A stretch of DNA of 64,000 nt from Acidobacteriota bacterium. Its GTDB lineage: Bacteria; Acidobacteriota; Terriglobia; Terriglobales; SCQP01. Below the pieces are notes generated by a model that saw only the letters and a program-made list of their open reading frames with translations, searched no databases and was not told the origin of the DNA. The stretch lies in NCBI GenBank assembly GCA_021818955.1, contig JAKASR010000019.1:5400-69399 (forward strand), read 5' to 3'. The position numbers and the translations under genes are program-made. Shown piece by piece: positions 35,011 to 61,691 of this stretch. How positions within the stretch are numbered: position 1 is the stretch's first letter; every line of letters begins with the position of its first letter.

Positions 35011-35032
35011 TGACTTTCGCGTCCTTATATAG
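35011..35032 (+). promoter_or_regulatory. TGACTT-N11-TATAG box upstream of the HTH/primase operon
   Basis: Same motif as at 44905, 49347 and 61289. Confidence 0.6.
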
Positions 35033-35066
35033 ACGCTCAATACTGATTCACCGAAAAAAAATAGTA

Positions 35067-35255
35067 TTGGGGAAAAGGAGGCTTCATATGGGACGGAAAA
35101 AAAGAGTTGATCCGCGGGACACAGTCATCGCACAGATGCTGTCGCAAACGAGGCTGAGCGTGAAGCAAATCGCGCAGGCGCTGGATGTAAGGGTATGGCG
35201 CGTGTATAGCGTAGCGGCGAACCAGGGCATTCCTATGCGCCGGGGCGTGAAGTGA
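35067..35255 (+). CDS. Small HTH protein (Cro/excisionase-like)
   Basis: LSVKQIAQALDVRVWRVYSV HTH pattern; stop overlaps the primase start. Confidence 0.65.
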   Translation: MGKRRLHMGRKKRVDPRDTVIAQMLSQTRLSVKQIAQALDVRVWRVYSVAANQGIPMRRGVK

Positions 35256-37783
35256 TGGCCGCCAAACCACTTCCAGGGTCTGTCACTGGCGAGCAATTGC
35301 TTTGGCAAATCGAATACGCCCGGTCTATTCGACTGCTACACCCCCGAAATAACGATGGCGAGCTGATCGACATCAGAATAAAGTACCCGCAAAGCGCACC
35401 GCAGCGTGTGGCTGACCGGGTATTCCGCGGCATACAGGATGCGGCAGCTTATGTCCAGGAGCAGTGCGCCCAGTACGACGTAGAGGCCGTGTGGCAGGGG
35501 CTGAATCATATCCGACAAGACTCCGATATCGTGTCCAGGGGCGTCGCGGACGCCGACATAGACTACTACACCAACCTGCTGATCGATCTCGATCCTGATC
35601 GACCCGCCGATACCAACTCCACGGACGCCGAATTGGCGGCTGCTGCGGAGTCTGCGCGGCGCATAAAGGATGGATTAGGCGCTTTAGGCTGGCCGGAGCC
35701 GATAGAGGCCATGTCCGGTAACGGCCATCAGCTAGCTTTTCGGATCGATCCTCCGATTGCAAATACGTCAGAAAATAAAGAGATGGTGAAAGCCGTCCTA
35801 AACCGGCTAGCTGATATTTACGATACCGAAGCTGTGCATGTAGACCGCAAGGTATACAACCCCAGCCGCGTCGTAAAACTCTGGGGCACCATGACGCGTA
35901 AGGGGCCAGATTCAGCCGAGCGTCCACAGCGTCGATCATCTATTTTGTCGGTTGCGTCGCTGGATTCCGTGGTGACGGCGGAACAGCTACGAGATTTTAT
36001 CGGCGGCTATACGCCGCAGGCTGCGGGGCAGCGGGCTGCGGTGGCGAAGCCGTCTGTGCTGGTGCCTGGCGGCAAAATCCAACAAGGAAACAGAAATGAC
36101 ACGATGTTTCGTCTCGCCTGTGTGTTACGAAATCAGGGACTCGCAGGCCAAGCGATTTGGGACGCCGTAAAAGCCCAAAATAAGGCTGTTTGCGAGCCGC
36201 CGCTGAGCCAAGACGAGCTCAGAGAGACGGTGAAAAACGTCATTCAACGCTACCCAGCGGGCGACCCAGCGGCGTGGAAAGGTCTGGACGATCAGCGGCT
36301 GCCAGTAGATGAGACCGAGCCGGAGTTCGTAGCTGCTGCTGCTGAGACGGCAGAGATGCCGGCACAATTAATCGAGACCCTGCTCCCGCTGCACGACACC
36401 GGCAACGCTTTACGCTTCGCGCAGCAATGGGGCAGCGAATACCGCTATTGCCCTGAGCGGGGCTGGATGCGGTGGGACGGCTCCCGCTGGATAGAGGACA
36501 AAGACGGCGCGATTGTGCGAGCGGCGACCGAAACGGCAGACGAAATAAACGACGAATTGTTAGCCGCTACGCCGTTCGCTATCAAAAGTGCGGCTACTGC
36601 GGCCAGCATTGCGCCGGAGAAACTAGCGGCAAAATGGGCAAAGTGGGCACACGATTCGCATAGCCGCGGGCGCCTAGACGCAATGATTGAGCTGGCCAGA
36701 TCGCGTCAGGGCATCACTGTACCTATTGAGCGGTTCGACGCTGATCATTGGCTGCTTAACTGTCAGAACGGGACGCTTAATCTGCGAACGCTAGAGTTCA
36801 AAGAGGCGCGACGGGACGATCTGATCACCAGACAAGCGCCGGTAAGCTACGACCCGCAGTCAAAATGTCCTAGGTGGCAGCGGTTTTTAAAAGAAATCTC
36901 CGATGGACGCGATGAGATGCCCGGTTACCTGCAACGTCTTGCCGGTCATTGCTTGACGGGCGACACCTCCGAACAATCGTTCTGGATCCTTTGGGGCGAC
37001 GGAGAGAACGGTAAGGGCGTATACCGTGACACGATTCAGTCGCTGCTGGGCTCCGACCGCGACGGTTATGCGGTAGAGGCACAACCCAAGTTTTTTATCC
37101 GTCGAGATGCGCCTGGCATACCATCCGAACTTGCGTCCTGGAAGGGCGCACGGTTGGTGACGGCCGCCGAACCGCCGAGTGGAGCGCCAGCCGATGAGTC
37201 GCTGATCAAATCACTGACCGGGCAGGATATGGTTCGTTGTCGTTTTTTATTCAAAGAATATTTCAGCTACCGCCCTACATTCAAGATCCTGGTCTTGGCC
37301 AACCGCCCGCTCAGCATCCATGATTCCGATCACGGCGTCTGGCGACGGCTTAGGTTGTTGCCGTTTACGGCGACCTTTACTGGTGAGGCCAGAGATAAAG
37401 AGCTCCGTCAAAAGCTACAAGATGAACTACCCGGCATCCTGAACTGGGCTATTGAAGGTTTGCGTCAATGGCAGGGTGCCGGTCTTGGCATGCCGGCATT
37501 TCTGCGCGAAGCGACCGAAGGCTATCGTGCCGAGGAAGACCGTATTGCGGCATTTTTAGCACAGCAAACCGAACCCAACGGTGAAACGCAAGCAAACGCA
37601 TTGTACACTACCTATTCATTTTGGGCGGAAGAGCGCGGCGAAAAACCGCTGAGTATGCGCCGATGGAGCCAGGCCCTGCGTAGCCACGGGGTCTTAACCC
37701 GGACGCTACATGGGCGCACGCTGCTAAATGTGCGCTTGCGGACTCAGGGTGCGGCGCTTTCTGTAGACGAGATTACGTCTTAA
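35252..37783 (+). CDS. Primase-helicase (AEP-like primase, PriCT-1, D5/P4-type SF3 helicase)
   Basis: LLIDLD and MSGNGHQL primase motifs; GNRNDTMFRLA PriCT; DTGNALRF, LLNCQNG; Walker A GDGENGKG. Confidence 0.9.
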   Translation: MMAAKPLPGSVTGEQLLWQIEYARSIRLLHPRNNDGELIDIRIKYPQSAPQRVADRVFRGIQDAAAYVQEQCAQYDVEAVWQGLNHIRQDSDIVSRGVADADIDYYTNLLIDLDPDRPADTNSTDAELAAAAESARRIKDGLGALGWPEPIEAMSGNGHQLAFRIDPPIANTSENKEMVKAVLNRLADIYDTEAVHVDRKVYNPSRVVKLWGTMTRKGPDSAERPQRRSSILSVASLDSVVTAEQLRDFIGGYTPQAAGQRAAVAKPSVLVPGGKIQQGNRNDTMFRLACVLRNQGLAGQAIWDAVKAQNKAVCEPPLSQDELRETVKNVIQRYPAGDPAAWKGLDDQRLPVDETEPEFVAAAAETAEMPAQLIETLLPLHDTGNALRFAQQWGSEYRYCPERGWMRWDGSRWIEDKDGAIVRAATETADEINDELLAATPFAIKSAATAASIAPEKLAAKWAKWAHDSHSRGRLDAMIELARSRQGITVPIERFDADHWLLNCQNGTLNLRTLEFKEARRDDLITRQAPVSYDPQSKCPRWQRFLKEISDGRDEMPGYLQRLAGHCLTGDTSEQSFWILWGDGENGKGVYRDTIQSLLGSDRDGYAVEAQPKFFIRRDAPGIPSELASWKGARLVTAAEPPSGAPADESLIKSLTGQDMVRCRFLFKEYFSYRPTFKILVLANRPLSIHDSDHGVWRRLRLLPFTATFTGEARDKELRQKLQDELPGILNWAIEGLRQWQGAGLGMPAFLREATEGYRAEEDRIAAFLAQQTEPNGETQANALYTTYSFWAEERGEKPLSMRRWSQALRSHGVLTRTLHGRTLLNVRLRTQGAALSVDEITS

Positions 37784-37910
37784 TGGCGGCGCTGGCGCTT
37801 GTTGCTGACACTCTACAAGCACCGGCTTGCGTCCACTAGGCGCAAACACTACGAAATACCGCAATTCGCCCTAAGTTGTCCCGCCAACACCCGCATTACG
37901 TTTTTTCGTA

Positions 37911-38181
37911 GGGTGGGCAAGGGTGGGCATTGGGTGGGCATTATTGAGTTGCCCACCCCTTCTAAGTTATTGAAAACAAAGCAAGTGGGTGGGCAAGGTG
38001 GGCAAGGTGGCCTTCTTTTATATTTATCGCGTATAGAAATGAGTTAGATATATATAGGCATAATTATAGGATAGGTAATATACGGAAATTGCCCACCTTG
38101 CCCACCCTTGCCCACCTCAGCCTTTAAAATGAGAGACTTACGATTACGCGATGCCCACCCAATGCCCACCCTTGCCCACCC
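37911..38181. repeat. Putative phage replication origin: TGCCCACC iterons in inverted arrangement around an AT-rich core
   Basis: Perfect 31-bp inverted repeat 37911-37941 / 38151-38181; about 12 iteron copies; IHF-like site at 37963-37975. Confidence 0.8.
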
Positions 38182-40990: not shown

Positions 40991-41224
40991 GCTGCCGCTA
41001 GGGCTGCTCAGATGTTGATCGCATCTGGACAGCCCGCTTGTTTTTAAAAACCCGAATCGCGCAATTGCGAATTGAGCAAAACAAGCATGTCGACATAAAA
41101 CCGTCGATCTGAAAACTTGTCAACAAAAAAATGCAAGAAAATAAAAATAGTTTATAACTCGCCTAATACCAGATATTTACAAGCCGTAAGCCAGGCAAAA
41201 AATGTTTACCTGAATCGTTAATAG

Positions 41225-41557
41225 ATGACCTATTCAGACTCGCTGATTACGATTGCTGCTCTTTACGTTTGGCGCAATGCGCCATCTGTGTCGATTGCAA
41301 ACGCCATGCTACTATGTATGCGAAACCGCAGTAAAAATGCGGGTATCAGCGATGTTTTAGACGATCTTGTATGCGATTCGCCAATTGATAGCGTACCGAA
41401 AGATGATGACGTTAGGTATCGATCCATCCTACAATCTGCGCAGCGAATTTTACGGCAAGATAGTGACGAAGATGACATTACCTATGGCGCGACAAATTGG
41501 ACTCGGGTAAACGACAAAAAAGCCAAGCTAATAATCGACGGTTTCTATTTTTCGTAG
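41225..41557 (+). CDS. SleB/Hydrolase_2-like cell-wall hydrolase homologue, apparently lacking the catalytic Glu
   Basis: ALYVWRNA (vs xWREARGE), MRNR, DITYGATNW, IDGFYF. Confidence 0.5.
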   Translation: MTYSDSLITIAALYVWRNAPSVSIANAMLLCMRNRSKNAGISDVLDDLVCDSPIDSVPKDDDVRYRSILQSAQRILRQDSDEDDITYGATNWTRVNDKKAKLIIDGFYFS

Positions 41558-44879: not shown

Positions 44880-44904
44880 TTTATGTCCCTAAAAAGCAAC
44901 AAAT

Positions 44905-44927
44905 TGACTTCTCGTCGCTATATATAG
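44905..44927 (+). promoter_or_regulatory. TGACTT-N12-TATAG box abutting the portal ATG
   Basis: ttgacttctcgtcgctatatatagATG. Confidence 0.65.
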
Positions 44928-47045: not shown

Positions 47046-47051
47046 AAAGGT

Positions 47052-49340: not shown

Positions 49341-49346
49341 ACATTC

Positions 49347-49367
49347 TGACTTCCCGCCACTATATAG
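49347..49367 (+). promoter_or_regulatory. TGACTT-N10-TATAG box abutting the ATG at 49368
   Basis: tctgacttcccgccactatatagATG, immediately after the terminator. Confidence 0.65.
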
Positions 49368-49865: not shown

Positions 49866-49870
49866 CAAAA

Positions 49871-50341
49871 ATGCCCGATTTCAAGCCGCCGGTCTCCCCG
49901 GCACCCAAAAACGATGCGCCTCTCACGCTAACGCAAGATCAATTCGCAGAGCTTTTACGAGCTGCCCGCGAAGTACCTATCGATCCGCAAAAGCAGAAAG
50001 CCGAGGAAGCGTTGCGGCGTCAAGCACGGGAATCCGCTAAGCGTGCTGCGGAAATCCGCAAGCGTGAACAGGCTAAGTGCAGCCACCGGCGTAAAGACTG
50101 GAACGGTATCGCTAAATACCGCATCGCCTGGCAGCGCCTAGCGACCAGCGAATACATCGGCGTGTGCCTGATCTGTAACCGTACGCTGCGCGAAATGGAG
50201 CTGGGCACAGAAGAATTTAACCGGCTCTACGCAGCTTCCGCCGGCACGGAAAATGTCGCCGAGATGCCGCTGCATCCGGACGCCGTCGCCAACTACCAAG
50301 CCGAATTAGCAAAATGGCGCACAGCCAACACTGGAAAGTAA
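49871..50341 (+). CDS. Hypothetical phage protein (CxH...CxxC)
   Basis: CSHRRK...GVCLIC. Confidence 0.7.
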   Translation: MPDFKPPVSPAPKNDAPLTLTQDQFAELLRAAREVPIDPQKQKAEEALRRQARESAKRAAEIRKREQAKCSHRRKDWNGIAKYRIAWQRLATSEYIGVCLICNRTLREMELGTEEFNRLYAASAGTENVAEMPLHPDAVANYQAELAKWRTANTGK

Positions 50342-50350
50342 GGACAAGTT

Positions 50351-51034
50351 ATGGCCTCCACGATCACACTCCAAAACGTAGTTAATGTCTCGCAGATTTT
50401 CCTGCGAAACCTGCCGTTAGGTTCCCTTAACGGCGTCGTCAATGAACCAGCGCTGACCATCGCCAACATGACGGCTGCCATCATCCTGGCACCTCCGCTT
50501 TCGTGGCCGTGGAACTCGGCGATCAGCACCACCACTACGTTAACGGTGGGCACCCCAACCGTGACGGTAAGCTTGCCATCATTCGGCTGGCTGCAAACCG
50601 CATCGGTCACACTCGGCGGCGTAACAACCCAGCTGACAATAAAAGACGATCTTGGCGAGTCCAGCCAGCAACAGCTACCTACTTTTATTTCCGTGAAGGG
50701 GCAGGATGGGCTGGGCAACGTCACGTTTCGCATGATGGGCGTCCCCGATCAGGCGTACACGCTGAACCTTGATTATCAGCAAGCGCCGCCTTTGTTTACG
50801 ACGCTGTCACAGACCTGGTCGCCGATCCCCGATAGCCTCTCGCATATTTACCAGCTTGGCTTCCGCGCCTTCGCTTATGAGATTGACGCCGATCCACGCT
50901 GGCAGGCAACGATGCAACTTTTCCTGTCGCAACTACTAAACGCTCACGGCGGACTCAGCGAGCAACAGAAGAATCTGTTTCTGCAAAACTACGCCGCATT
51001 TGCACGAGTACCACAAACGCAAACGAGGCGGTAA
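50351..51034 (+). CDS. Head-tail adaptor-like protein, paralogue 1
   Basis: Shares EPALTIA..., PxxWxWN, GWLxxAS, YQQxxP with 51042-51977. Confidence 0.65.
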   Translation: MASTITLQNVVNVSQIFLRNLPLGSLNGVVNEPALTIANMTAAIILAPPLSWPWNSAISTTTTLTVGTPTVTVSLPSFGWLQTASVTLGGVTTQLTIKDDLGESSQQQLPTFISVKGQDGLGNVTFRMMGVPDQAYTLNLDYQQAPPLFTTLSQTWSPIPDSLSHIYQLGFRAFAYEIDADPRWQATMQLFLSQLLNAHGGLSEQQKNLFLQNYAAFARVPQTQTRR

Positions 51035-51041
51035 ATAAGCA

Positions 51042-51977
51042 TTGGCGCAAACCGTCAAAATTAGTGATGTGGTCAAGTGGGCACGAACGGTGCCTAATCT
51101 CGTCCCGCTGCTCGGCGTCTCGGGCTTTGAATTGGAGCCCGCGATGACTATTGCCGCGCAGGTGCAAGCTGAAATTTACGCCGCGCCCTGGAACTGGAAG
51201 TGGAATCGCTCCGTCGCTCCAACTTTCTACGTCAACGCCAATCAGCAAGACTATTGCACGACGCTAACCAGCGTTGGCTGGCTTGAATCTGCGTCCCGCA
51301 CAGACCTGCAAACGGCCGGCCCCAATACGCCAGCGGAGATTTGGCCGGTGGAGGCCGTGCAAGGTTTATACCCAACAACGCTTCGCGGGATGCCGCTTAA
51401 AGTATGCTGGATCCCCAACTCACAGGCACAAGCTGGGAAGTGGAGCGCAGGCGCGAGCTATACCAACCCATCCACGCTAAAGACGGTCAGCAACAATCCG
51501 CTTACTCAGATTTTAGATTCCAACGGGAACATACAGATCATTACGGGCTACGGCACAACTGGCACAACTGAGCCCGTGTGGTCGACCACAATTGGCGCGA
51601 CCACAATCGACGGCACCGTCACCTGGACGATGGTCGATCCCACGGGCATCGCCTGGCGTCTTGATCGTCTCATGGGCGAGCAGGAAAACGGGCAGGCGTT
51701 GAGCGTGACTTATCAGCAGAAAGCTCCGGCGTACGTAAACCTGAGCAGCCTTATCGGCGTGCCTGATGAGGTGGCATACGTTTGGCGTCAAGGCTTTTTC
51801 GCGCTGATGCTGCGCCATGCGGCTGACGGGCGCTACGTATCGGAATACGAGATTTTCGAGGCCTATATACAGAAAGCGATGGGCGCTGCTGATCGCGAGC
51901 CGCAATCAATGCAGCTTGTGCCCGACTGTGCTCTCGGCGGCTCGGGCTGGAGCAGCTGGGGCTGGGGGGTATGGTAA
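51042..51977 (+). CDS. Head-tail adaptor-like protein, paralogue 2
   Basis: As above, plus a short insert ending TTIDGTVTWT. Confidence 0.65.
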   Translation: MAQTVKISDVVKWARTVPNLVPLLGVSGFELEPAMTIAAQVQAEIYAAPWNWKWNRSVAPTFYVNANQQDYCTTLTSVGWLESASRTDLQTAGPNTPAEIWPVEAVQGLYPTTLRGMPLKVCWIPNSQAQAGKWSAGASYTNPSTLKTVSNNPLTQILDSNGNIQIITGYGTTGTTEPVWSTTIGATTIDGTVTWTMVDPTGIAWRLDRLMGEQENGQALSVTYQQKAPAYVNLSSLIGVPDEVAYVWRQGFFALMLRHAADGRYVSEYEIFEAYIQKAMGAADREPQSMQLVPDCALGGSGWSSWGWGVW

Positions 51978-51980
51978 AAA

Positions 51981-54065
51981 ATGCCGGCTATATCGTTGCT
52001 CGAAGCGGCTGGTATACCAAAAGTTAAGCCTTCACGCTTCGGCTCAATCTATCAAAAACGATTTTTCACGGGCTATGTCAGCAACCGCTCACCATTGGAG
52101 CAAGGCAGCAGCCGTGTAGACGAGCGCTTCTACGGCGGCCGCTCTGATGTGCTGTGGCTCGGATCGCAAAACATCGAGTTGAGCGCATCTGGACTGTTGA
52201 TTCGCAGACCCGGATTTTCAAGTTATACGACTGCGATGCCCATCACTTCGCCCTGGCAATCGTTCTACAGCTTTAAAAATTTGAGCGGCGCTATAACGTT
52301 GTTTGGCGCAACCGCAACTGAACTCTACACCGTTACGCCGACCGCAATCACCAGTCTTTACGCCAAGCCTTCCGGCGCGGGCGTAACGCAGTTTTTGACG
52401 GTCGGCAACTCTTGTTACTTATGTGACGGCAAAACCAACAAAGTCTATAGCGCCGGGGCACTGAACAGCGACGGCATCGCCGCGCCCGCTACTGCGCCAA
52501 CCCTGAGCTTTGCTTCAGCCGGCGCTGTGTGGCAGGCCAACTACGGCTACGCCGCGACTGGCACGCAGATCACCGACCCATACCAGGACATACAGCAAGT
52601 CACGACCGCCGGTGTCAGCGGAAAGTCTCAGCCGCCCTGGTCGCTCGGCTCCGGGCAAACTACAGCGGACAATTCAGTTGTCTGGACAAACGAAGGCAAA
52701 AATTCAAGCGCCGGGGTCTTTGAGCAGACTGGCTGCTATTACGTTTACGCCTATCAAAACAGCACGACGGGCGACTACTCAACCGCTTCGCCGCAGTCCG
52801 CATTCACCGGATCGCAATCGAACCAAAAGATCACTGTAGGTGGCGACTATTCCGCAGACTCGCAGGTAGATAAAGTTGCAATTTTCAGAACGTTGGACGG
52901 CGGCGCAACCTTTATGCTGGCCGCCACGATTGCAAACGTGGTCGGGACTGGTACTTGGTCTTGGGTTGACCAGCTCGCAGACTCCAAGCTAAACCTGCTG
53001 ATCCTTGCGCCCATCAATCATCAAAACGATCCCGCGCCAGCCGCAACCTGCCAAGCGTATTATGCCGGCCGCCGCTGGGTCGGCAGCAGCAACTACGTTT
53101 ATTTCAGCAGCGGTCCCGATCAGGGCACCGTCGCTGGCAACGGCCAAAACTGCTTTCCACCGGCTAACGTCTTCACGTTCCCCACGCAGATCATGGGACT
53201 GATCCCGTTCAGCGGCGGCTTGCTCGTCGTTACGACCGACAGTCTCTACGCCATCGGCGGCAGCGATCTGGCGTCATTCTACGTTTCGCTGTTCATCGAC
53301 GATATTGGCGTCTTGACTCCAAACGCCATCGCAACCGACGCCGGCAGCATCATCCTGTTTACATCTGACCGGCGACTCGTTGCTATCGGCGGCGCTGGCG
53401 TTGACGACATCGGCTTTGCAATCGCTGACCAGCTAGCGCAGATTGACCCGTCAAAGGCTTATATTGCTGTCCATCGAGAGGGCAGTAATGACCGAGCACT
53501 CTACCTGAGCGATGGCGTCTCCACCATCTGGCGCATGAATCCAAATCAAGCGCCGGAGGGTGGCATCGCCTGGTCGGCACCCGCAACGCCAGCCAATGGC
53601 GTTGGCGCACTCGTCAGCTGCGAAACATCAATCGGCACGAGGCAGCTTCTGATGAGCGCCGCGACTGGCACAGCGTTTCCTATTCTCTACAGAGACACAA
53701 CCGTCAACGAGGACAACGGCACAGCCTTCACAGCGACAGCCGTAATTGGCTCGTTAGTCCTAGCCGCGCCTGGCGGCTTGGCCGAGGTAAAGGACGTCAT
53801 CGTCGAAGCGTCGCCATCATCGACGCCGACTGTTGGCGTTCTGCTAAACGAAATTAGCGGCACCTTTCAAACGTTAAACCAATGGACTGCTGACCCGCCC
53901 GAATACGCAACCCCCAGCGCATCAATCAATGCGCGGCGCTACTATTTGCTGGCATCGCAGCAGCCGATTGCGTGCCGACATCTGCAACTTTCGGTTTCTT
54001 TTCCGGCAGCGAATACAGCGGACATTCTTTATTCGTTCGCTTTGAACGCGGGGCAGGCTCTGTGA
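51981..54065 (+). CDS. Tail nozzle / head-closure protein (P22 gp10 or T7 gp12-like)
   Basis: 694-aa beta-rich protein; LIRRPG, YYAGRRW...YFS, position after the adaptors. Confidence 0.7.
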   Translation: MPAISLLEAAGIPKVKPSRFGSIYQKRFFTGYVSNRSPLEQGSSRVDERFYGGRSDVLWLGSQNIELSASGLLIRRPGFSSYTTAMPITSPWQSFYSFKNLSGAITLFGATATELYTVTPTAITSLYAKPSGAGVTQFLTVGNSCYLCDGKTNKVYSAGALNSDGIAAPATAPTLSFASAGAVWQANYGYAATGTQITDPYQDIQQVTTAGVSGKSQPPWSLGSGQTTADNSVVWTNEGKNSSAGVFEQTGCYYVYAYQNSTTGDYSTASPQSAFTGSQSNQKITVGGDYSADSQVDKVAIFRTLDGGATFMLAATIANVVGTGTWSWVDQLADSKLNLLILAPINHQNDPAPAATCQAYYAGRRWVGSSNYVYFSSGPDQGTVAGNGQNCFPPANVFTFPTQIMGLIPFSGGLLVVTTDSLYAIGGSDLASFYVSLFIDDIGVLTPNAIATDAGSIILFTSDRRLVAIGGAGVDDIGFAIADQLAQIDPSKAYIAVHREGSNDRALYLSDGVSTIWRMNPNQAPEGGIAWSAPATPANGVGALVSCETSIGTRQLLMSAATGTAFPILYRDTTVNEDNGTAFTATAVIGSLVLAAPGGLAEVKDVIVEASPSSTPTVGVLLNEISGTFQTLNQWTADPPEYATPSASINARRYYLLASQQPIACRHLQLSVSFPAANTADILYSFALNAGQAL

Positions 54066-57000
54066 TAAATGACGAACAATTAACTGATGGTGTCGAGACT
54101 CCCTGGCTGCCAGAGGAGCAAGCCGAGCCATCGATACCTCAACCTCCGATTTCGGCTGAGAGCACTGCACCTTGGATTACTCCAACACAGAAAATCTCAC
54201 CGCCTGAACCAATTTCTGCGGTGCCTGAGACTTCCTGGCTATCCGAGGAACAAGCCGAGCCCGCAGCATCTCAGCCCCCGATTTCTACTGAGAGCACTGC
54301 TCCCTGGCTTAGTCCCGAGGAGCATACATCTACATCTCAGCCCCCGGTTTCGATGGAAAGCGTCGCGCCTTGGATTGCACCGACACAGAAAGTCTCGCCA
54401 TCTGAACCAATCTCGGCTGAACCTGACGCCCCCTGGCTAGCGCCAGCACCAGCACCAGAGCAACAGGCATCGACATCGGCCCCAGAGCAGGAAAACGCTC
54501 CCTGGCTTGCGGCAGACGAGCCGAGCGATCCAGTACCCGAGAGCCCCGAGCCTGAAAATCCAACGTCGTGGACTGAGCAGAATACGCCGACTGCACCGGA
54601 ACGCCCAGTATCGCCACCCGCGCCCATCCAGCCAAACACCGGATTGCCTGCTGGACGCACGACACAGATCCAATCTTTAGAGCATGAGATTTCGACGTTG
54701 AAACGCAGCGCCTACTCCGGCTCCGGCGTGCCGAGCATTCCGCTTCAGCACCGCTTGACACAGCTCGAAGCACAACTCCAGGCGCTACTGAAACTGAAGA
54801 CCACGCCTGCCGCAGCCGGCAACACCAACAATCAAGCCGTGCAGGCCGCAACCGCAGCACCCGCAGCTTCTGGGACGCCCGGCCAAGTCACGCTGGAGTC
54901 GGTTAGCGGGCAATCGTTCAAGACCCAAACAGGTGCCGTCAAAGAATTAGTTAGCGTCGCATTCCAGCCGAGTACTGCGGGCAGCGGCTATTTTACAGGT
55001 GTTGATGTCTGGGTGACAGGTTACCACGGCAGCACAACGTCCGAACTAGTTGCCAGCGGCCAGACGTCGCCTCTTAGCTTCCTGCTTGACGTGACGGGTG
55101 AGACGGTGGATTTTACCGTTCAGGCGACCGGTACGGGCGGTGACGCCGAGTACGATTTTGCGCCGACCGCAAGCCTCGCGCTAAACGGCGTCACGACCGC
55201 GCCGCCTCAGCCGACCGTCACGCAGTACGTCGTCGCGATCCCGACTGGCTATCAGTTCAGCTTCAATCAAGAAGCCGGATTGCTGGCTGATATCATCTCC
55301 GGCTATAACGTTTATCGCAACTCCAGCGACTCGTTTACCGGCTCGACAAAGATTGCGCACCTGAAGCAAGACCCCACCAACTCGGGCAGCGTGGTATTTC
55401 AAGACCAGCAATCGAGCACGACGCAGCAATATTATTGGGTCACTGCGGTAAACACGTCAGGGCTCGAATCCGCTGCGACAGCCGCACAGACCGGAGCATC
55501 CGGTGTGCCGGGAATTGCACTGCCCCCGAATCCCACCAATCTGACGGTCAGCCAAAGCCAATCGACCATTGATGGCGTGGTGAAGGTCGTGCTGACGATT
55601 GGTTATAACGCACCCAACCCGCTCAGCACCTTTGCCGGCGTACAGGTGGCGATGGAGGGGTATCACGGCTCAACCGTGGTGACGGCGATTGGAGCAATGA
55701 ACCCGTTTACCGGCGCGGCGGCAGCGGCGCAATCGTTCACTGTGCCAGTAGATCGTACCGGCGAGACGGTCACTCTTTATCTGGCACCGGTCAATAGCTA
55801 TGGCGTTTCGCCTGGCTGGGCCAGCGTGCCTTCTGTGGGGCTCACCTTAAATGGCGCATTGAACGCTCCCACGGAGCCCACTAATCTGACTGTGACCTCG
55901 TTGCCGGGAGGCAATCGGCTGGATTGGTCGCTAGGAACCGAAGCCAACCTGGCCGGCTACATCATTGCGCGCTCGGCGACGAATGTCTTTACCGACGCCA
56001 CCGTGATTGGGCATGCCGCTGTGACCCGCGCCTCGGGTACACCACCACCCAGCTACTATGATCCAACGCAAAACACCGCTGATACTTATTACTATTGGGT
56101 GCAAGCAGTTGATACGGCTGGCAACACCAGCACAGCAGCGGAGACTTCTACCGCTTCTGGATCATCTGGCGTAGGCGCAGGACAATCAGTATCGCCCAGC
56201 AACACAAATATAGTTCCTGATTCTGATTTTCTGTTTGGCGCAACCTACTGGACGCTGGGCGCAAATTTCAGCTTTGCTGAAGCCGGACAGGCAGTCGAAA
56301 ACGCTGGCGGCAATCTCATCCAGTTTGGCGGGGTAAGCTCGGGGCTTGGAACATTCCAGGCGTACAGCACGCCCGTCGCGGTTTACCCCAGCTCTAGCTA
56401 TACGCTATCTGCGTACCTCGGCACGTTTAATCTGAGCAGCGGCACGATCACGCTGGCCGTGATGGACCCGACCCGTGTTACCACTTACGGCTCGATCTCG
56501 CAAAGCTACCCCACTTACGGCCGCGTCTACGGCACCGTCACGATTCCCGCCAGCGTCACGACGGCTGTGATTGTCTGCGACGCCGATACCGCCAATTGCC
56601 CCAGCGGCAAGACTTGCGTCTGGGGTGCGATGCAGCTTGAATACGGCTCCCAGGCGACCTCGTATAAGCCCGGTTCTTCACCCAACAATCAAACCTATTG
56701 GGCTCGCGGTGCGCATCCACCCGAATACAATGCCGTCATCACGTCAGGCTCGCAGATCACCGGCTCTACTACTTTAACCGGCACCGTCGAAACCCAGATT
56801 GCCCTACAGGAAATCCACGACCGCGTCTCGCCTAATATTTACGACCACGCCAATTTAAGCGGGGCGAGCGGGATACAGGGCGTGGTTGAAACGGCTCTTG
56901 CTTTGGCCGAAGTCCACGACCGGGCATCCGGAAACCTCTACGATCATACCCACCTCAACGGCAGTTCCGGCGTCAGCGGCATAGTCGAGACGGCCATTAC

Positions 57001-60000
57001 GGTAGCGGAGTTGCACGATAGAGCCTCGGGGAATCTTTACGATCACACCCACATTACGGGAAGCAGCGGCATCTCGGGCGTGACCGAAACCGCGATTGCG
57101 ATGTCTGAGCTGCATGACCGCGTCTCCCCCAACATCTACGATCATGCCAACTTCACTGGCACCAGCGGTATCCATGGAACATCGGAGACCGCAATCAATT
57201 TAGCCGAAGTTCATGATCGCGTCTCGCCGACCATCGGCGGGCATGGCGGGGTGGGACTAGATAACCTCAACGAAGGCGCTGATTTTCGTAGACACGTCAG
57301 CAACCAATCCGGCCCCAACTTATTTCAAAACGGCGATTTTGAACAGTCGGCCACGCTCTATGCCGGCGCGCCCGCCGGATGGCAAAACTATAACAGTTCG
57401 ACTCTGTTACTAGATACCACAACTTACAACACCGGCGCTCAATCTCTCAAGGTCACGGGTTCGGCAGCGGGCACGGGAGCCTACCAGAGCATCGCCGTGC
57501 ATGGCGGCGAGCAATACTACTTGACCGGGGCCTTCATGGTAAGCAACGCCAGCTCGACTGCCAAGATTACGGTGGATTTTTTTCAAGGCTCAACCTACAA
57601 ATCCGCAGTCACGCTGGCGTCAACCACCGCGACCGTCTGGACGCCATTTAGCTACTCCATTTCCGTGCCGGCTGGCATGACCAGCATGATCGTTTACTGC
57701 TACCAAATTCCAGCAGCTGGTTACTTCGCCTGGTTCGATTCCATTTCTTTGATCCGGCAGCAGAACCTGGACAACGAAATGCAGGTGGGAACAACTTATG
57801 GCCGCGTCCGGCAGACCGAGATGGGCGGCTCGGAGACTGGCAGGATTTATCAGTTAAACGATGGGACGAATGTCAGGACCTCGGCGCAGATCACGGGGGT
57901 TGTGGACTCGACCTCTACGGCAGCGTCTGGCGTGGTGCATGGCGGAGCGGGGGTTAGCAGCGTCGGCCAGACGGCCATAACCTTGGCCGAGATGCACGAC
58001 CGCACCAGCTCGACCATCCCCGGCAATGCGCAATTGAATAGCGGAGCGGTGATCTCGGGAAGAACCGAAGGCATCGGCACGACGGTACAGAACGTTGACT
58101 CCACGGGCATCGTAACGGCGTCTGGGCTTGACTTTACCCGCGCCTACACCAACAAGAATGTAGACAACGTCCCTGACGGAACGACTTACGCCCGCACGAA
58201 GGGCGCAAGCCTGACCTCGGGCTACGTCAGCAAAGTCTCGCAAAACGGCACGACCACCTATAACGCCAAAGGGGTGGGCGACGCTCAAACGCTGAGCTTG
58301 GATAGTGAAATCGCGGATGGTACGACTTACAACCGCGTCAACGCGACTGCGGTTACCAGCGGTAATATCGACTTCTCCAAGTCAGGCTTCGCCAACAAGA
58401 CCGTAGATAACGTCGCGGACGGCTCAACCTTCGTGCGGCTGCTCGGCACACACGCCTCAGGCAACGTCGCCTATAACTACAAAGGCGTCTGGTTGAGCAC
58501 GACAAGCTACGTCGTCGGCGACGAAGTAGTATATGAGGCCAGCTACTGGATCGCCACGGCGGCATCCAGCAATCAAGCGCCCGCCACGGGCAGCAGCTAT
58601 TGGCAGGTGGTGGGGACGTACTCGGGCTTTGAGGGTGCATGGTCGAGCACGACGGCTTACGTCGGCGGCGCTGAGGTAACGTATAACGGCAATTTCTGGG
58701 TGGCTGTGTCGGCCAACACCAATTCGACTCCGACTACCAGCAATGCCAACTGGCAAATTGCTGGGCCGAGCGACCTAGATAATGTGGCGGATGGTACGAC
58801 CTACATCAAGCTGCAAGGCGTAGGCACAGGCCATCAAGTAGGCTGGCATGGTCTGCTGGGCGATACCAGCGGCGACACCACCACCAGTATCGTCGATACC
58901 ACCAACAAGCGGCTGCTGCACAGCGCCATGTCGGGACCAGTGCAAGCCGTAGTTAATACCAGCAATCAGATCACGTCAACCACCCTGATTGAAGGCAGAA
59001 CAGAAAATATCGGGACTACAGTCACGCACCTGACTTCGACTGGCGAGTTCGACTCACCCGACAATTTTGCACTAACGACCGGCTCTACCTACGGCATCGT
59101 CAAAGTAACCGAGCTCGCCAGCAATACCGTTAAGCAGATAAACGATGGAACCAACATCAGAACCGCCGCACAAGTCACGGGAGTGGTCGATTCCACATCG
59201 ACGGCGGCATCAGGTGTTGTCCACGGTGGAGCTGGGATTGGTGGAACCACCAAGACGGCGATTATATTTAGCGATCTGCACGACCGGGTAAGCGCAACGA
59301 TTGGGGAATCGGCGGCGACGGGCTTGGACAACCTGAACGAAGGCAGCGACTTTCGCCGCATTGTATCCAATTTTCCTGGCCCCAACTTATTTCAAAACGG
59401 CGATTTTGAGCAAAGCGCGACGCTATATGCCGGCGCGCCCGCTGGCTGGAAACTCTACAACAACGCGACTTTAAGCCTGGATACGACGACTTATAATACC
59501 GGGTTGCAATCGCTCAAGGTTACGGGTGCAAGCGGTGGAACCGGGGCTTGGCAGACGATTGCCTGCCACGGCGGCGAGCAATATTATATTACTGGGGCAT
59601 TCAAGGTCAGCAGTACCAATACCGCTGAAATATTGATTGACTTCTACCAAGGCTCAACCTACAAATCCGCAGTCACGCCGGCGTCAACCACTTCGACCTC
59701 CTGGACATCATTTAGTTATACCATCACAGTCCCCGCCGGCATCACCAGCATGCAAGTTTATTGCTACCAGGGTGTGGCGGCGGGGGATTTCGCTTGGTTC
59801 GACTCGATGTCGTTGATCCGGTTGCAGAATTACGATAACGAAATCCAGGAAGGTGCCACTTATAACCGGGTGTTAGCCACCGCTATAACCAGCGGCAGCA
59901 TCGACTTCTCAAAATCCGGGTTTGTCAACAAGACGGTTGACCATGTTGGCGATGGCACCTCTTACGCCCGCACCCTGGCCGCTGGCCTGAGCTCTGGCTA

Positions 60001-60883
60001 TGCCGCGAAAACAGGCTCGGCGGGCGGGTACAACATCAAGGGCGTGGGCGACGCGCAGACACTGAGCTTCGATAATGAAGTGGCGGATGGGACGACGTAT
60101 GTACGCTTGAAGGGCGTGGACAGCGATAACACCGGTTTGACGCTGGGGTATTCGGGCTCGCCACAAATGCAGATCGGGCAGAACGGGCTGATCACCATTT
60201 CTACGGGCGGCCACCAAATCAAGCGTACCGTGCATACGGAGCCGCTTTCAACAGCGAATGGTGGCAACACATACCCCAGCGGTGAGACGATTTACTTTTA
60301 CTCAAGCGGCGGCACTCCATATTTGCTGGATGACGGCGGTAACGCCCTGCCTACATTTGACCACGCTCCCGCCGTCACTCTGATGCCGAATAACATAACG
60401 CCGCCCCTGCAGCTTTATGCGTCGAACGTCACGACCACCAGCTTCGTGCTGAATGCTTATTCGTCCGGCACCACCAAAATCCAAACCGGCAACCTGGTAA
60501 ACGGTACGCTAACGCCGATTTCGGCGGACTCGGGCTACGACTACACAACCATCAAGCTCTCGGCTGTAGTAAACACGGCGGATGATACAAACAGCCACGG
60601 TGCGCCGCTCTACAGTGGCACCGTAACGATCAATTACACGGTGGGCACGACCACCGGGAGTTTTTCGATTAGCTGGGCCAGTACGGGCGGCAGCATGAGT
60701 GGTTCGGTCAGCATCAACGCCCCGGCCAGCACCACATCTATTTCCATCGAAGAGAGTTGGAGTACGCCGCTGGCTACAGGCATCGCCAGCGTTACGGCAA
60801 GCTACACAGCGACTGAGATGGAAAGCGCATCACCGGTTTCTAATGTAGATTTTACCGCCATCATTTCGGAGCCCTGGTCCTAA
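54062..60883 (+). CDS. Giant mosaic tail fibre / receptor-binding protein (about 2,273 aa)
   Basis: GTG overlaps the upstream TGA; FN3-like, CBM-like (NLFQNGDFEQ), CBM5/12-like (GAWSSTTAY) domains and multiple internal repeats. Confidence 0.8.
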   Translation: MINDEQLTDGVETPWLPEEQAEPSIPQPPISAESTAPWITPTQKISPPEPISAVPETSWLSEEQAEPAASQPPISTESTAPWLSPEEHTSTSQPPVSMESVAPWIAPTQKVSPSEPISAEPDAPWLAPAPAPEQQASTSAPEQENAPWLAADEPSDPVPESPEPENPTSWTEQNTPTAPERPVSPPAPIQPNTGLPAGRTTQIQSLEHEISTLKRSAYSGSGVPSIPLQHRLTQLEAQLQALLKLKTTPAAAGNTNNQAVQAATAAPAASGTPGQVTLESVSGQSFKTQTGAVKELVSVAFQPSTAGSGYFTGVDVWVTGYHGSTTSELVASGQTSPLSFLLDVTGETVDFTVQATGTGGDAEYDFAPTASLALNGVTTAPPQPTVTQYVVAIPTGYQFSFNQEAGLLADIISGYNVYRNSSDSFTGSTKIAHLKQDPTNSGSVVFQDQQSSTTQQYYWVTAVNTSGLESAATAAQTGASGVPGIALPPNPTNLTVSQSQSTIDGVVKVVLTIGYNAPNPLSTFAGVQVAMEGYHGSTVVTAIGAMNPFTGAAAAAQSFTVPVDRTGETVTLYLAPVNSYGVSPGWASVPSVGLTLNGALNAPTEPTNLTVTSLPGGNRLDWSLGTEANLAGYIIARSATNVFTDATVIGHAAVTRASGTPPPSYYDPTQNTADTYYYWVQAVDTAGNTSTAAETSTASGSSGVGAGQSVSPSNTNIVPDSDFLFGATYWTLGANFSFAEAGQAVENAGGNLIQFGGVSSGLGTFQAYSTPVAVYPSSSYTLSAYLGTFNLSSGTITLAVMDPTRVTTYGSISQSYPTYGRVYGTVTIPASVTTAVIVCDADTANCPSGKTCVWGAMQLEYGSQATSYKPGSSPNNQTYWARGAHPPEYNAVITSGSQITGSTTLTGTVETQIALQEIHDRVSPNIYDHANLSGASGIQGVVETALALAEVHDRASGNLYDHTHLNGSSGVSGIVETAITVAELHDRASGNLYDHTHITGSSGISGVTETAIAMSELHDRVSPNIYDHANFTGTSGIHGTSETAINLAEVHDRVSPTIGGHGGVGLDNLNEGADFRRHVSNQSGPNLFQNGDFEQSATLYAGAPAGWQNYNSSTLLLDTTTYNTGAQSLKVTGSAAGTGAYQSIAVHGGEQYYLTGAFMVSNASSTAKITVDFFQGSTYKSAVTLASTTATVWTPFSYSISVPAGMTSMIVYCYQIPAAGYFAWFDSISLIRQQNLDNEMQVGTTYGRVRQTEMGGSETGRIYQLNDGTNVRTSAQITGVVDSTSTAASGVVHGGAGVSSVGQTAITLAEMHDRTSSTIPGNAQLNSGAVISGRTEGIGTTVQNVDSTGIVTASGLDFTRAYTNKNVDNVPDGTTYARTKGASLTSGYVSKVSQNGTTTYNAKGVGDAQTLSLDSEIADGTTYNRVNATAVTSGNIDFSKSGFANKTVDNVADGSTFVRLLGTHASGNVAYNYKGVWLSTTSYVVGDEVVYEASYWIATAASSNQAPATGSSYWQVVGTYSGFEGAWSSTTAYVGGAEVTYNGNFWVAVSANTNSTPTTSNANWQIAGPSDLDNVADGTTYIKLQGVGTGHQVGWHGLLGDTSGDTTTSIVDTTNKRLLHSAMSGPVQAVVNTSNQITSTTLIEGRTENIGTTVTHLTSTGEFDSPDNFALTTGSTYGIVKVTELASNTVKQINDGTNIRTAAQVTGVVDSTSTAASGVVHGGAGIGGTTKTAIIFSDLHDRVSATIGESAATGLDNLNEGSDFRRIVSNFPGPNLFQNGDFEQSATLYAGAPAGWKLYNNATLSLDTTTYNTGLQSLKVTGASGGTGAWQTIACHGGEQYYITGAFKVSSTNTAEILIDFYQGSTYKSAVTPASTTSTSWTSFSYTITVPAGITSMQVYCYQGVAAGDFAWFDSMSLIRLQNYDNEIQEGATYNRVLATAITSGSIDFSKSGFVNKTVDHVGDGTSYARTLAAGLSSGYAAKTGSAGGYNIKGVGDAQTLSFDNEVADGTTYVRLKGVDSDNTGLTLGYSGSPQMQIGQNGLITISTGGHQIKRTVHTEPLSTANGGNTYPSGETIYFYSSGGTPYLLDDGGNALPTFDHAPAVTLMPNNITPPLQLYASNVTTTSFVLNAYSSGTTKIQTGNLVNGTLTPISADSGYDYTTIKLSAVVNTADDTNSHGAPLYSGTVTINYTVGTTTGSFSISWASTGGSMSGSVSINAPASTTSISIEESWSTPLATGIASVTASYTATEMESASPVSNVDFTAIISEPWS

Positions 60884-60884
60884 T

Positions 60885-61253
60885 ATGATCACAGACTTAC
60901 GCTTCGTCGAAGAGTACCGGTTGTTGCTTGATGACCACATCCCGGCGCAGCTGGTACATTATCAGAACGTGCTCGCCGGGCTGGCGGCTACGCCGTCCAT
61001 CCATCACCACCACTGCGCCAACCGTCAATGCCAGGTGTGGGCAACGCAGCTAAATGCGTTGATAGCAGACGCAGCAAAATTGGCCGCCTTCCAGTCGCGT
61101 TACCCCGACTGGACAACGGCCAACTTACAGGCGTATGTTACGAGCCTTACGACTATAGACACAGCGGTTGTAGGGTACTTACAAAGCCAGAACTCCACCA
61201 ATCTGGCGGCCATCCAGACGGCGCTCTCCGCGAACCTTGCGCAAGTTACATAG
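60885..61253 (+). CDS. Hypothetical protein (possible fibre chaperone)
   Basis: Directly follows the fibre gene; helical. Confidence 0.6.
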   Translation: MITDLRFVEEYRLLLDDHIPAQLVHYQNVLAGLAATPSIHHHHCANRQCQVWATQLNALIADAAKLAAFQSRYPDWTTANLQAYVTSLTTIDTAVVGYLQSQNSTNLAAIQTALSANLAQVT

Positions 61254-61288
61254 TTTCGTAGCTTTTAACTGGTGCCGAGCCAGCAATC

Positions 61289-61310
61289 TGACTTCTCGTA
61301 TCTAATATAG
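61289..61310 (+). promoter_or_regulatory. TGACTT-N11-TATAG box abutting the ATG at 61311
   Basis: tctgacttctcgtatctaatatagATG. Confidence 0.65.
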
Positions 61311-61691
61311 ATGGAATTTCGTCCTATACTCCCCGACGATCTAAATGAGTGGTCCCGCTGGGCAACTGCCCGCGGCGTCGATGCAGGCAGCGTAGCAAAG
61401 GCTGTCGAGGGCCGCGCCATAGCCCGAATCGCCGACCGCAAGGGTGGCATCCTCTACGTACATGCTGCGCCGCTGGCAGCGAACGGCGACATGGACGTAG
61501 ACATCTTATTCAATCCGGACGCCACGGCTCGTCGCGTTGCCGGGGCCATTGCTCTGACGGCAGATGTGCTGCGCAAAGCGGGCGCTAAGCGTGTGGTCTT
61601 TGACTCAGTAGCGCAGGAGCTAATTTCGTTTTTGCTGCGGCATTACAACGTCAAGCTTGGCCCAAGCACGAAAGTGACGGTAAGCCTCTAA
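61311..61691 (+). CDS. GNAT-like small protein preceding the ejection proteins
   Basis: MEFRPILPDDL start; position equivalent to P22 gp14 / T7 gp13. Confidence 0.55.
   Translation: MEFRPILPDDLNEWSRWATARGVDAGSVAKAVEGRAIARIADRKGGILYVHAAPLAANGDMDVDILFNPDATARRVAGAIALTADVLRKAGAKRVVFDSVAQELISFLLRHYNVKLGPSTKVTVSL

What the first reader, a model, noticed from the sequence alone, without database searches (positions are those of the whole stretch)
35011..61313. Recurring TGACTT-N10-12-TATAG box directly abutting late-gene start codons
Seen: ttgactt-N12-tatagATG (portal, 44905), tctgactt-N10-tatagATG (49347, right after the capsid terminator), tctgactt-N11-tatagATG (61289, ejection module) and tctgactt-N11-tatagACG (35011, before the replication operon). 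A degenerate version (tgttta...taatagATG) precedes 41225. The three ATG-abutting genes lack an SD. The spacing is too short for sigma-70. Inference: a phage-specific promoter or activator class driving leaderless or near-leaderless transcripts at module starts.
Basis: partly seen in the sequence, partly recalled or inferred. Interest (0 to 1): 0.72.

Follow-up and report, generated by a model that had tools for sequence, protein, structure and literature searches.

The report
Prophage control box fused to start codons
A 36.6-kb prophage in an acidobacterial genome carries four same-strand copies of a box found nowhere else in the host. Three copies run straight into the start codons of virion gene blocks that lack a ribosome-binding site, so the box is most likely a phage-specific transcription start signal, though no experiment or enzyme yet backs this.

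Summary
TGACTT-N10-12-TATAG occurs four times in the window against 0.04 expected. These are the only four copies in the 3.8-Mb genome. All lie on the + strand of one tRNA-Ser-integrated prophage.

Three copies abut the first possible ATG of an ORF with no Shine-Dalgarno sequence. For the portal, homologues align from residue 1, so that ATG is the true start. The fourth copy ends in ACG and sits in the divergent control region before the replication operon.

I found no phage RNA polymerase. The spacing fits no sigma-70, ECF or sigma-54 layout, and there is no shared RNA fold or Rfam family.

One related prophage (portal 40% identical) has ACTTCCCCCTGCTCTATATAG|ATG at its terminase start. An unbiased count found no wider conservation.

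The 32685 protein is a tandem sigma-region-4-like HTH protein. Its relatives sit next to integrases, often behind leaderless-type promoters, so it looks at least as much like an immunity regulator as an activator. Its link to the box is co-occurrence only.

Best reading (about 0.45): a phage-specific start signal for leaderless or near-leaderless mRNAs. Rivals: L5-type operator/stoperator sites, or a start-associated 5'-UTR element.

I class it as a new variant of a known kind, of moderate interest.

The parts
35010..35035 (+). Box 1: cTGACTT-N11-TATAG-ACG. It lies in the divergent region between the minus-strand operon (start about 34949) and the plus-strand HTH/primase operon. It is followed by CAATACTG-N17-AGTATTG and an SD-led ATG at 35088.
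44904..44930 (+). Box 2: tTGACTT-N12-TATAG fused to the portal ATG (44928), 25 nt after the terminase stop codon. No SD.
49346..49370 (+). Box 3: cTGACTT-N10-TATAG fused to the ATG of a 165-aa virion-block gene (49368). No SD.
61288..61313 (+). Box 4: cTGACTT-N11-TATAG fused to the ATG of a 126-aa gene (61311), the first of four unassigned genes that end the prophage. No SD.
41203..41227 (+). Weak, doubtful degenerate copy: TGTTTACCTGAATCGTTAATAG fused to the ATG of a 110-aa ORF. A sigma-70-like TTTACA-16-AAAAAT lies just upstream.
49303..49342 (+). Intrinsic terminator after the major capsid gene (13-bp stem, T-run), immediately upstream of box 3.
32685..33467 (+). P0051: a 260-aa protein with two tandem sigma-70-region-4-like HTH domains (about residues 48-115 and 122-180). 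It is a candidate regulator, but its link to the box is inferred only.
35088..37783 (+). Replication operon downstream of box 1: a 55-aa HTH protein and an 843-aa PriCT/D5_N primase-helicase.
44928..49268 (+). Head block downstream of box 2: SU10-type portal, a 107-aa gene, scaffold and major capsid protein.
49368..61253 (+). Adaptor/tail block downstream of box 3, including a 2303-aa repetitive fibre-like protein that is not a polymerase.
30422..30438 (+). attL core TCCCTCTCTCTCCGCCA at the 3' end of tRNA-Ser(CGA). The second copy lies at window coordinate 67029-67045, beyond the window end, so the prophage is about 36.6 kb.

Best explanation
The box is a phage-specific, TSS-proximal transcription signal, in effect a dedicated promoter class. 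It restarts transcription at the head of the replication, head, tail and terminal gene blocks once the prophage goes lytic. On this reading RNA synthesis begins within or right after the TAG of TATAG. The three virion-block messages would then start at, or 1-2 nt before, their AUG and be translated without a Shine-Dalgarno sequence. The fourth message would carry a normal 55-nt leader. Shown: the sequence, its uniqueness, its strand bias, its fusion to true start codons, the lack of SD, and the terminator context. Inferred: that it acts on DNA, where transcription starts, and which protein reads it.
For: There are 4 of 4 copies in one orientation, unique to the prophage in 3.8 Mb. Each copy sits at the start of a functional block. 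Three of three late copies are fused in the same register to the first possible ATG, and the portal start is verified by homologues. Those three genes lack an SD, while most genes after an intergenic gap have one. Such exact fusion is what a leaderless mRNA requires and is not predicted by a mere roadblock site. Box 3 follows a strong terminator by 14 nt. Box 1 sits in a divergent region that must contain the plus-strand promoter. The TA-rich segment is an island in 57% G+C DNA. These phages use leaderless geometry elsewhere. Examples are rGTATTn 5-8 nt before the start codons of P0051-family genes in several contigs, and a canonical TTGACA-17-TACAAT-5 nt-ATG immediately after the capsid gene in relative L011. 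A related prophage, L010, has ACTTCCCCCTGCTCTATATAG|ATG at the true start of its terminase gene, with about 0.01 chance hits expected in the portal-relative loci (my estimate from pattern frequency, not a tool output). No shared RNA structure and no Rfam family were found.
Against: No TSS data exist. No single-subunit or other phage polymerase was found. With sigma-type holoenzymes a TA-rich -10 element lies 5-8 nt before the start, so a start 0-2 nt after TATATAG has no precedent for a multisubunit polymerase. The host's own promoters look canonical, with TTGACA and TAAAAT enriched. The early leaderless-type promoters in these phages place their TATT element 4-5 bp further from the ATG than the box does. 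Spacing between the two conserved blocks varies by 2 bp. Conservation beyond L010 is not above chance. No candidate factor is shared between this prophage and the sampled L010 region.
Confidence: 0.45

Rival explanations
1. Operator/stoperator sites. The box would be the asymmetric binding site of the prophage's immunity regulator, perhaps the two-HTH protein P0051 binding as a monomer. Box 1 would be the operator of the divergent early promoters. Boxes 2-4 would be orientation-dependent roadblocks that keep virion blocks silent in the lysogen, as in mycobacteriophage L5 and Cluster A phages.
For: The sites are asymmetric and bipartite, with 2-bp flexible spacing. All are co-oriented with transcription, one in a promoter region and three in short intergenic spaces. 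This matches the L5 description (PMC9283540). No CI/Cro-type repressor is recognisable. P0051 has two HTH domains. Its homologues lie next to integrases in 4 of 4 long contigs and often behind leaderless-type promoters, as many immunity repressors do. Box 1 ends 5 nt from a CAATACTG element that could be the -10 of the leftward promoter.
Against: This reading does not explain why three of three late boxes are fused in identical register to SD-less start codons, although the intergenic spaces (48-99 nt) leave room for an SD. There are only 4 copies, against more than 20 in L5. The nearly invariant recognition-helix residues of the P0051 family fit the family-wide rGTATT motif (CAGTATTGA, three exact copies here) better than a box seen only here. 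L010 has a box but no P0051 homologue in 31 kb sampled.
Confidence: 0.2
2. RNA-level start-associated element. Transcription would start upstream, for example from the sigma-70-like GTGACA-18-TACATT that ends 1 nt before box 3. The box would then be a short conserved SD-less 5' UTR or intercistronic signal that recruits ribosomes or a translational regulator to the adjacent AUG. This is comparable to the unexplained SAS of Cluster K mycobacteriophages.
For: The distance to the AUG is fixed, as for ribosome-binding signals. The AU-rich UAUAUAG lies directly before the AUG. Sigma-70-like hexamers sit directly upstream of box 3 and of the weak 41225 copy. A -10-like wACwwt is immediately 5' of TGACTT in the four sites. 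SAS are likewise asymmetric, one-orientation, start-codon-adjacent and absent from the host (PMC3203893).
Against: Box 1 is not followed by a start codon, yet is as well conserved as the others. No complementarity to the anti-SD was seen by inspection. No shared fold was found. The upstream -10/-35-like hexamers are not consistent across the four sites. The strong terminator before box 3 would leave little read-through RNA.
Confidence: 0.17
3. Promoter for a T7-like single-subunit phage RNA polymerase, based on resemblance to ...CACTATAG with +1 G.
For: The sequence ends in CTATA(TA)G and has about 23-30 conserved bp. It has one orientation and sits at module starts, as class II/III T7 promoters do (general knowledge). 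The initiating-purine context TATAG|A is present.
Against: No PF00940 or other polymerase was found in any prophage ORF scanned. The genome-wide search was negative, although its controls did not ring. The largest ORF is a repetitive fibre. The 843-aa protein is a primase-helicase. Variable spacing is atypical for single-subunit polymerases. The rest of the host genome was searched for a polymerase only by the uncontrolled.
Confidence: 0.03

Closest known systems
Phage-specific middle/late promoter classes read by redirected host RNA polymerase (T4 MotA box with AsiA sigma appropriation; phiEco32 gp36-dependent AATGTA promoters)
   Same: A conserved phage-only box replaces the normal -35/-10 layout and marks many phage transcription units. 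phiEco32 and SU10 share the portal type (PF23899) with this prophage.
   Different: Those promoters keep a -10-type element centred near -10/-11.5, with the start about 7 nt downstream. Here the TA-rich block abuts the start codon. No MotA, AsiA, gp36 or other sigma-2-containing protein was found, and none of the known box sequences matches.
Stoperators/operators of mycobacteriophage L5 and Cluster A repressors (PMC9283540)
   Same: Asymmetric sites in one orientation relative to transcription, located in a promoter region and in short intergenic spaces. They are read by a monomer with two DNA-binding domains, and this prophage does encode a two-HTH protein.
   Different: The L5 sites are 13 bp and number more than 20; here there are 4 sites of about 26 bp. 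The exact fusion to SD-less ATGs is not a stoperator property. Binding was not tested.
Start-associated sequences (SAS/ESAS) of Cluster K mycobacteriophages (PMC3203893)
   Same: Short asymmetric repeats in one orientation, within a few nt of start codons (mostly ATG), essentially absent from the host genome, with unknown function.
   Different: SAS contain an AGGAG Shine-Dalgarno core, lie 3-7 bp from the start, number 11-19 per genome and are confined to non-structural genes. This box has no SD, lies 0 bp from the ATG, has 4 copies and sits mainly before virion blocks.
T7-group single-subunit RNA polymerase promoters
   Same: A TATA immediately before a purine start, a contiguous conserved box of about 23 bp, and placement at the heads of gene classes.
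   Different: No such polymerase is encoded, and the spacing is variable.
Leaderless promoters (lambda PRM/cI; the mycobacterial leaderless transcriptome, PMC4633059)
   Same: The start codon would sit at the 5' end of the message, with no SD.
   Different: In those cases a normal -10 hexamer lies 6-7 nt upstream of the ATG. Here that position is G+C-rich and the TA block is 4-5 bp too close.

Membership tests
T7-like single-subunit RNAP promoter | The phage encodes a T7-type RNA polymerase (PF00940) | tested here: not met
   Pfam and PHROGs scans of the main prophage ORFs of about 100 aa or more found none. The genome search was negative but its controls were silent.
T7-like single-subunit RNAP promoter | Rigid, ungapped consensus from -17 to +6 | tested here: not met
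   The distance from TGACTT to TATAG is 10, 11, 11 and 12.
Sigma-70 -35/-10 promoter | Two hexamers separated by 16-18 bp, with the start about 7 nt after the -10 | tested here: not met
   yTGACT to TATATA is 8-10 bp. A start 7 nt after TATATA would delete the verified ATG.
ECF-sigma promoter | A GGAAC-type -35, then 16-17 bp, then a CGTC/TCTGA-type -10 | tested here: not met
   Nothing is conserved 16-17 bp downstream of TGACTT or upstream of the CGYC in the spacer.
L5-type stoperator | Asymmetric site, single orientation relative to transcription, in promoter and short intergenic regions | tested here: met
   definition from PMC9283540
L5-type stoperator | Bound by the immunity repressor, with orientation-dependent block of elongation | not testable with these tools
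   Needs EMSA or a reporter assay. P0051 is only a candidate.
L5-type stoperator | Many copies (more than 20) spread over the genome | tested here: not met
   There are 4 copies and no one-mismatch extras.
SAS of Cluster K phages | Contains an AGGAG core and lies 3-7 bp before the start codon | tested here: not met
   No SD core is present and the spacing is 0 bp.
SAS of Cluster K phages | Asymmetric, one orientation, start-codon-adjacent, absent from the host | tested here: met
   (3 of 4 copies are start-adjacent)
Leaderless mRNA | The primary 5' end lies at the A of the AUG | not testable with these tools
   No RNA reads cover the prophage.
Leaderless mRNA | A true start codon without SD, directly downstream of a promoter-like element | tested here: inconclusive
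   The true start and the lack of SD are shown. The promoter nature of the box is not shown.
Sigma-70 family (for P0051) | A sigma-2 domain that binds the clamp helices and melts the -10 | tested here: not met
   Only region-4-type hits, twice in tandem. No Sigma70_r2 hit; the fold matches are sigma-4 domains only.
Q-type antiterminator (PF06530, for P0051) | Full-length match to a Q family, or a Q21/Q-lambda fold | tested here: not met
   Sub-threshold hits cover only the HTH part of the profile, positions 57-111 of 118. No Q structure appeared in the fold search.

The most novel reading that the evidence does not exclude
The box would define a compact promoter geometry not described for bacterial multisubunit RNA polymerase. 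A -35-like word (yTGACTT) would be read only about 17 bp upstream of the start codon by a phage sigma-4-mimicking protein (the tandem region-4 protein P0051 or another factor). An AT-rich melting block would run up to position -1, yielding leaderless mRNAs. An earlier unchecked note of this scan (e1-5232704) describes TTGACA 13-18 nt before start codons in Verrucomicrobia phages. That hints the layout may recur across phyla.
Probability: 0.15. Interest if true: 0.85.

Novelty: new variant of a known kind. Interest (0 to 1): 0.55.

Why it matters
Transcription control in phages of Acidobacteria is essentially unknown, and this prophage has almost no close relatives in public data; its best portal match is 46% identical. 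A box that is unique to the phage, marks every major lytic block and is welded to SD-less start codons gives a direct experimental handle on how such phages switch on late genes. It also bears on whether leaderless translation is a routine strategy for them. If the start really lies at the end of the box, host RNA polymerase is being positioned in a way no known sigma or activator explains. If instead the box is a repressor roadblock, L5-type silencing extends outside Actinobacteria. Either way, the tandem sigma-4-like protein family (about 116 clusters, integrase-linked) is an uncharacterised class of phage regulators worth testing.

Tried and rejected
1. T7-like promoter: rejected because no polymerase gene was found.
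2. The 2303-aa ORF as a virion RNA polymerase: rejected. It has no DxDxD motif, no PDB or PHROG hits, and Ser/Thr/Gly-rich internal repeats typical of fibres.
3. Sigma-70, ECF, sigma-54 and T4-late geometries: none fits.
4. A structured RNA: no Rfam hit, fold z-scores from -1.7 to +0.3, and no common structure.
5. TSS evidence from public reads: the prophage is present only in DNA runs of a mine-drainage study. The metatranscriptomes carry no prophage contigs.
6. Conservation in relatives:
   - There are no close relatives by portal in genome or viral collections.
   - Distant relatives L008, L011 and G002 lack the box.
   - L010 has one strong and two weak copies.
   - I at first thought ACTTC about 20 nt before start codons was shared by contigs carrying P0051 homologues (L013, L015, L019, L021). 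An unbiased count showed no enrichment there or in 37 further related contigs, so I withdrew that claim.
7. P0051 as the shared factor: no homologue in L010/L025 or L023-L059.
8. Whole-protein structural matches for P0051: only sigma-4 domain hits.
9. Gapped-word discovery in related contigs was too noisy to use.


Full report
**1. The observation**

- The pattern TGACTT-N9-13-TATAG has four matches in the window, at 35011, 44905, 49347 and 61289, all on the + strand. Expectation is 0.04, and no shuffle reached four (sequences read).
- The window is C23:5400-69399 of a 3.80-Mb, 47-contig assembly. A scan of both strands of the whole assembly finds only these four copies.
- A relaxed core, ACTT[CT]-N8-12-TATAG[AG][TC]G, occurs 4 times in the prophage and twice in the remaining 3.77 Mb.
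- Allowing one mismatch adds no further prophage copies.
- Aligned, the box reads aCwwty-TGACTT-yyCGy..yC-T(A/T)ATATAG-A(T/C)G. Nothing is conserved further upstream or downstream.

**2. The setting**

- Host G+C is about 63% and drops to about 57% from 30.4 kb onward.
- A tRNA-Ser(CGA) ends at 30438, followed by a tyrosine integrase.
- A 17-bp direct repeat, TCCCTCTCTCTCCGCCA, lies at 30422-30438 and again at window coordinate 67029-67045. This delimits a 36.6-kb prophage. Beyond it lie an amidohydrolase and a TonB-dependent receptor.
- A DnaX relative is titled 'Acidobacteria bacterium' MAG. The DNA comes from mine-drainage metagenomes.
- Gene order:
  - integrase;
  - a 260-aa protein with weak Sigma70_r4 hits (P0051);
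  - two minus-strand genes;
  - box 1;
  - a 55-aa HTH protein and an 843-aa PriCT/D5_N primase-helicase;
  - an iteron origin;
  - a minus-strand block with an ArdC-like gene;
  - small genes and the large terminase;
  - box 2;
  - SU10-type portal, scaffold, capsid and a terminator;
  - box 3;
  - adaptor/tail genes, including a 2303-aa fibre;
  - box 4;
  - four unassigned genes of 126, 229, 467 and 1017 aa.
- So the box heads the replication block and three virion blocks. Only the terminase block lacks it, and that block is preceded by a sigma-70-like TTGCCA-17-TACAAT.

**3. The start codons are real and SD-less**

- In all three fused cases the ATG is the first ATG/GTG/TTG after the upstream in-frame stop.
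- Eight portal homologues of 37-47% identity align from their own residue 1 or 2 with MPEIPQP.
- The 165-aa protein has homologues in L008, L010 and L011.
- None of the three has a GGAG-type motif in the 30 nt upstream. Genes such as 35088, 47052, 48264, 49871 and 51042 do.
- Box 3 begins 14 nt after a 13-bp-stem, T-tailed terminator that follows the capsid gene.

**4. What could read it**

- There is no phage RNA polymerase. Pfam and PHROGs scans of the main prophage ORFs of about 100 aa or more give no RNA_pol family.
- A genome-wide PF00940 search is empty, but its controls were silent, so it carries little weight.
- The 2303-aa protein is a repetitive Ser/Thr/Gly-rich fibre with CBM-like hits and no DxDxD motif.
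- The host appears to use canonical promoters. TTGACA is enriched 6-fold and TAAAAT 5.8-fold upstream of SD-led host genes.
- yTGACT resembles a -35 hexamer and TATATA a -10 hexamer, but they are 8-10 bp apart instead of 16-18.
- A start 7 nt after TATATA would remove the verified start codons. ECF, sigma-54 and T4-late layouts also fail.
- The box is not a known RNA family, and the four regions share no fold.

**5. The 32685 protein (P0051)**

- A word-indexed search found no relatives. An exhaustive HMMER search found 116 cluster representatives, mostly 230-290 aa.
- With that alignment, AlphaFold gives pLDDT above 90 for residues 50-180.
- Foldseek matches are local only, to sigma region-4 domains (SigF, SigD, sigma-E region 4), with TM about 0.7 over about 55 residues.
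- Pfam hits across the family fall on two separate HTH segments (Sigma70_r4_2). Sub-threshold Phage_antitermQ hits cover only that profile's HTH part.
- The protein is therefore a tandem sigma-4-like HTH protein without a sigma-2 domain. It is a DNA binder, not a sigma factor.
- In the four long contigs recovered for family members, the gene lies beside an integrase or at the head of the early operon. L021 also shares the primase N-terminal domain (37%) and the same origin design.
- In 8 of 10 loci the family gene is preceded by an rGTATTn element, usually 5-8 nt before the start codon. This is the geometry of a leaderless promoter and is common for immunity repressors.
- In this prophage the 9-mer CAGTATTGA occurs three times exactly: before the integrase gene, before P0051, and inverted 5 nt after box 1.
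- Several recognition-helix residues are nearly invariant across the family. The conserved rGTATT motif is therefore at least as good a candidate target for P0051 as the box.

**6. Conservation**

- The closest portal in 5.8 billion proteins is 46% identical. Direct locus searches found nothing closer.
- Among distant relatives, L008, L011 and a same-family genome (G002) lack the box.
- L010 (portal 40%) has aagacaACTTCCCCCTGCTCTATATAG|ATG at the start of its large terminase. That terminase aligns with the window's from residue 4.
- I estimate about 0.01 chance matches of ACTTC-N9-11-TATAGATG in the portal-relative loci. This figure is my own calculation from pattern frequency, not a tool output.
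- L010 also has weaker look-alikes before its 623-aa gene and its portal.
- I then suspected that ACTTC about 20 nt before start codons was shared by contigs encoding P0051 homologues. An unbiased count of ACT[TA]C 18-23 nt upstream of first-start ORFs gave these observed versus expected values:
  - P0051-homologue contigs: 4 versus 3.7;
  - 37 further related contigs: 7 versus 6.8;
  - portal relatives: 3 versus 2.1;
  - this prophage: 4 versus 0.6.
- That wider claim is withdrawn.
- No P0051 homologue occurs in L010/L025 (31 kb of that phage) or in the 37 related contigs.

**7. Weighing the readings**

- The feature that discriminates most is the identical, zero-distance fusion of three boxes to true SD-less start codons, with the fourth box ending in ACG. 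A message that begins at or just before the AUG explains this directly.
- Leaderless layouts are clearly part of these phages' repertoire. One example is a canonical TTGACA-17-TACAAT-ggaaa-ATG immediately after the capsid gene of L011.
- The terminator before box 3 and the divergent setting of box 1 also call for initiation there.
- Against this, no known multisubunit-polymerase promoter starts 0-2 nt after its TA-rich block, and no reader protein is identified.
- The L5 paradigm (asymmetric sites, one orientation, operator plus intergenic stoperators, a monomeric two-domain repressor; PMC9283540) fits the distribution and the presence of a two-HTH, integrase-linked protein. It does not predict the ATG fusion or the missing SD.
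- An RNA-level 'start-associated sequence', as in Cluster K phages (PMC3203893), fits the start-codon adjacency. It does not fit box 1 or the terminator context.
- I put the promoter reading at about 0.45, stoperator at 0.20, RNA-level at 0.17 and T7-like at 0.03. The remainder is unassigned.

**8. Verdict**

Its proposed factor is doubtful.
- The element is a new variant of known kinds (phage-specific promoter boxes, stoperators, SAS) rather than a demonstrably new category.
- The boldest surviving reading, a compact promoter read by a sigma-4 mimic, would be of high interest if TSS mapping placed the start at the end of the box.

Noticed in passing
window 30554-30562 (+), 32657-32665 (+), 35037-35045 (-), plus AGTATTG at 35059-35065: A second early-region motif. 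CAGTATTGA occurs three times exactly: before the integrase gene, before P0051, and inverted just after box 1. Related rGTATTn elements lie 5-8 nt before the start codons of P0051-family genes in other phage contigs (L013, L014, L016, L019, L022) and as divergent pairs in L020. The motif is either a -10 element for leaderless or short-leader early promoters, or the operator of the P0051 family.
   Followed up: partly
window 37880-38190: A probable replication origin directly after the primase-helicase gene. About 12 GGGTGGGCA iterons in opposite orientations flank an AT-rich core (ttatatttatcgcgtatagaaatgagttagatatatataggcataattatagg). L021 has the same design with GATTAGGCT iterons after its homologous primase (L021 14580-14800).
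   Followed up: partly
window 41560-41660: Tandem-like repeats of CTACGAAATAATAA(A/G)CTACAAA in a 44% G+C, ORF-poor stretch between the 110-aa gene and the terminase block. Possibly a packaging (pac/cos) or regulatory region.
   Followed up: no
window 38684-38728: A 20-bp-stem hairpin between the convergent plus-strand (38501-38683) and minus-strand (38745-) gene blocks. The scan listed it as a minus-strand terminator; the position suggests it may act in both directions.
   Followed up: no
window 53972-60883: The 2303-aa fibre-like protein contains two long internal duplications (about residues 1100-1290 versus 1790-1990, and repeated ...ELHDR(V/A)S... units near residues 940-1090). The listed GTG start overlaps the preceding 694-aa gene by 94 nt, so the true start is probably later.
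   Followed up: no
window 42888-44879: The large terminase ORF has about 125 N-terminal residues with no counterpart in the L010, L008 or L011 terminases, whose alignments begin at residues 129-156. Either the GTG start at 42888 is too far upstream or an extra domain is fused.
   Followed up: no
L011 13128-13168: In a distant relative, a canonical TTGACA-17-TACAAT lies 5 nt before the ATG of the gene that follows the capsid gene. This is a textbook leaderless promoter layout immediately after the capsid gene, as box 3 is here, although the downstream gene is not homologous to the one after box 3.
   Followed up: partly
L020 8680-9303 (-): A phage carrying a P0051 homologue also encodes an ECF-like sigma factor (Sigma70_r2 plus r4_2) about 0.7 kb from it, upstream of its terminase and portal genes.
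   Followed up: no
window 34227-34949 (-): The 241-aa minus-strand protein next to box 1 has acidic N- and C-terminal ends and a 42%-identical homologue in L024. It has no family hit. It may be an SSB-like or recombination protein.
   Followed up: no
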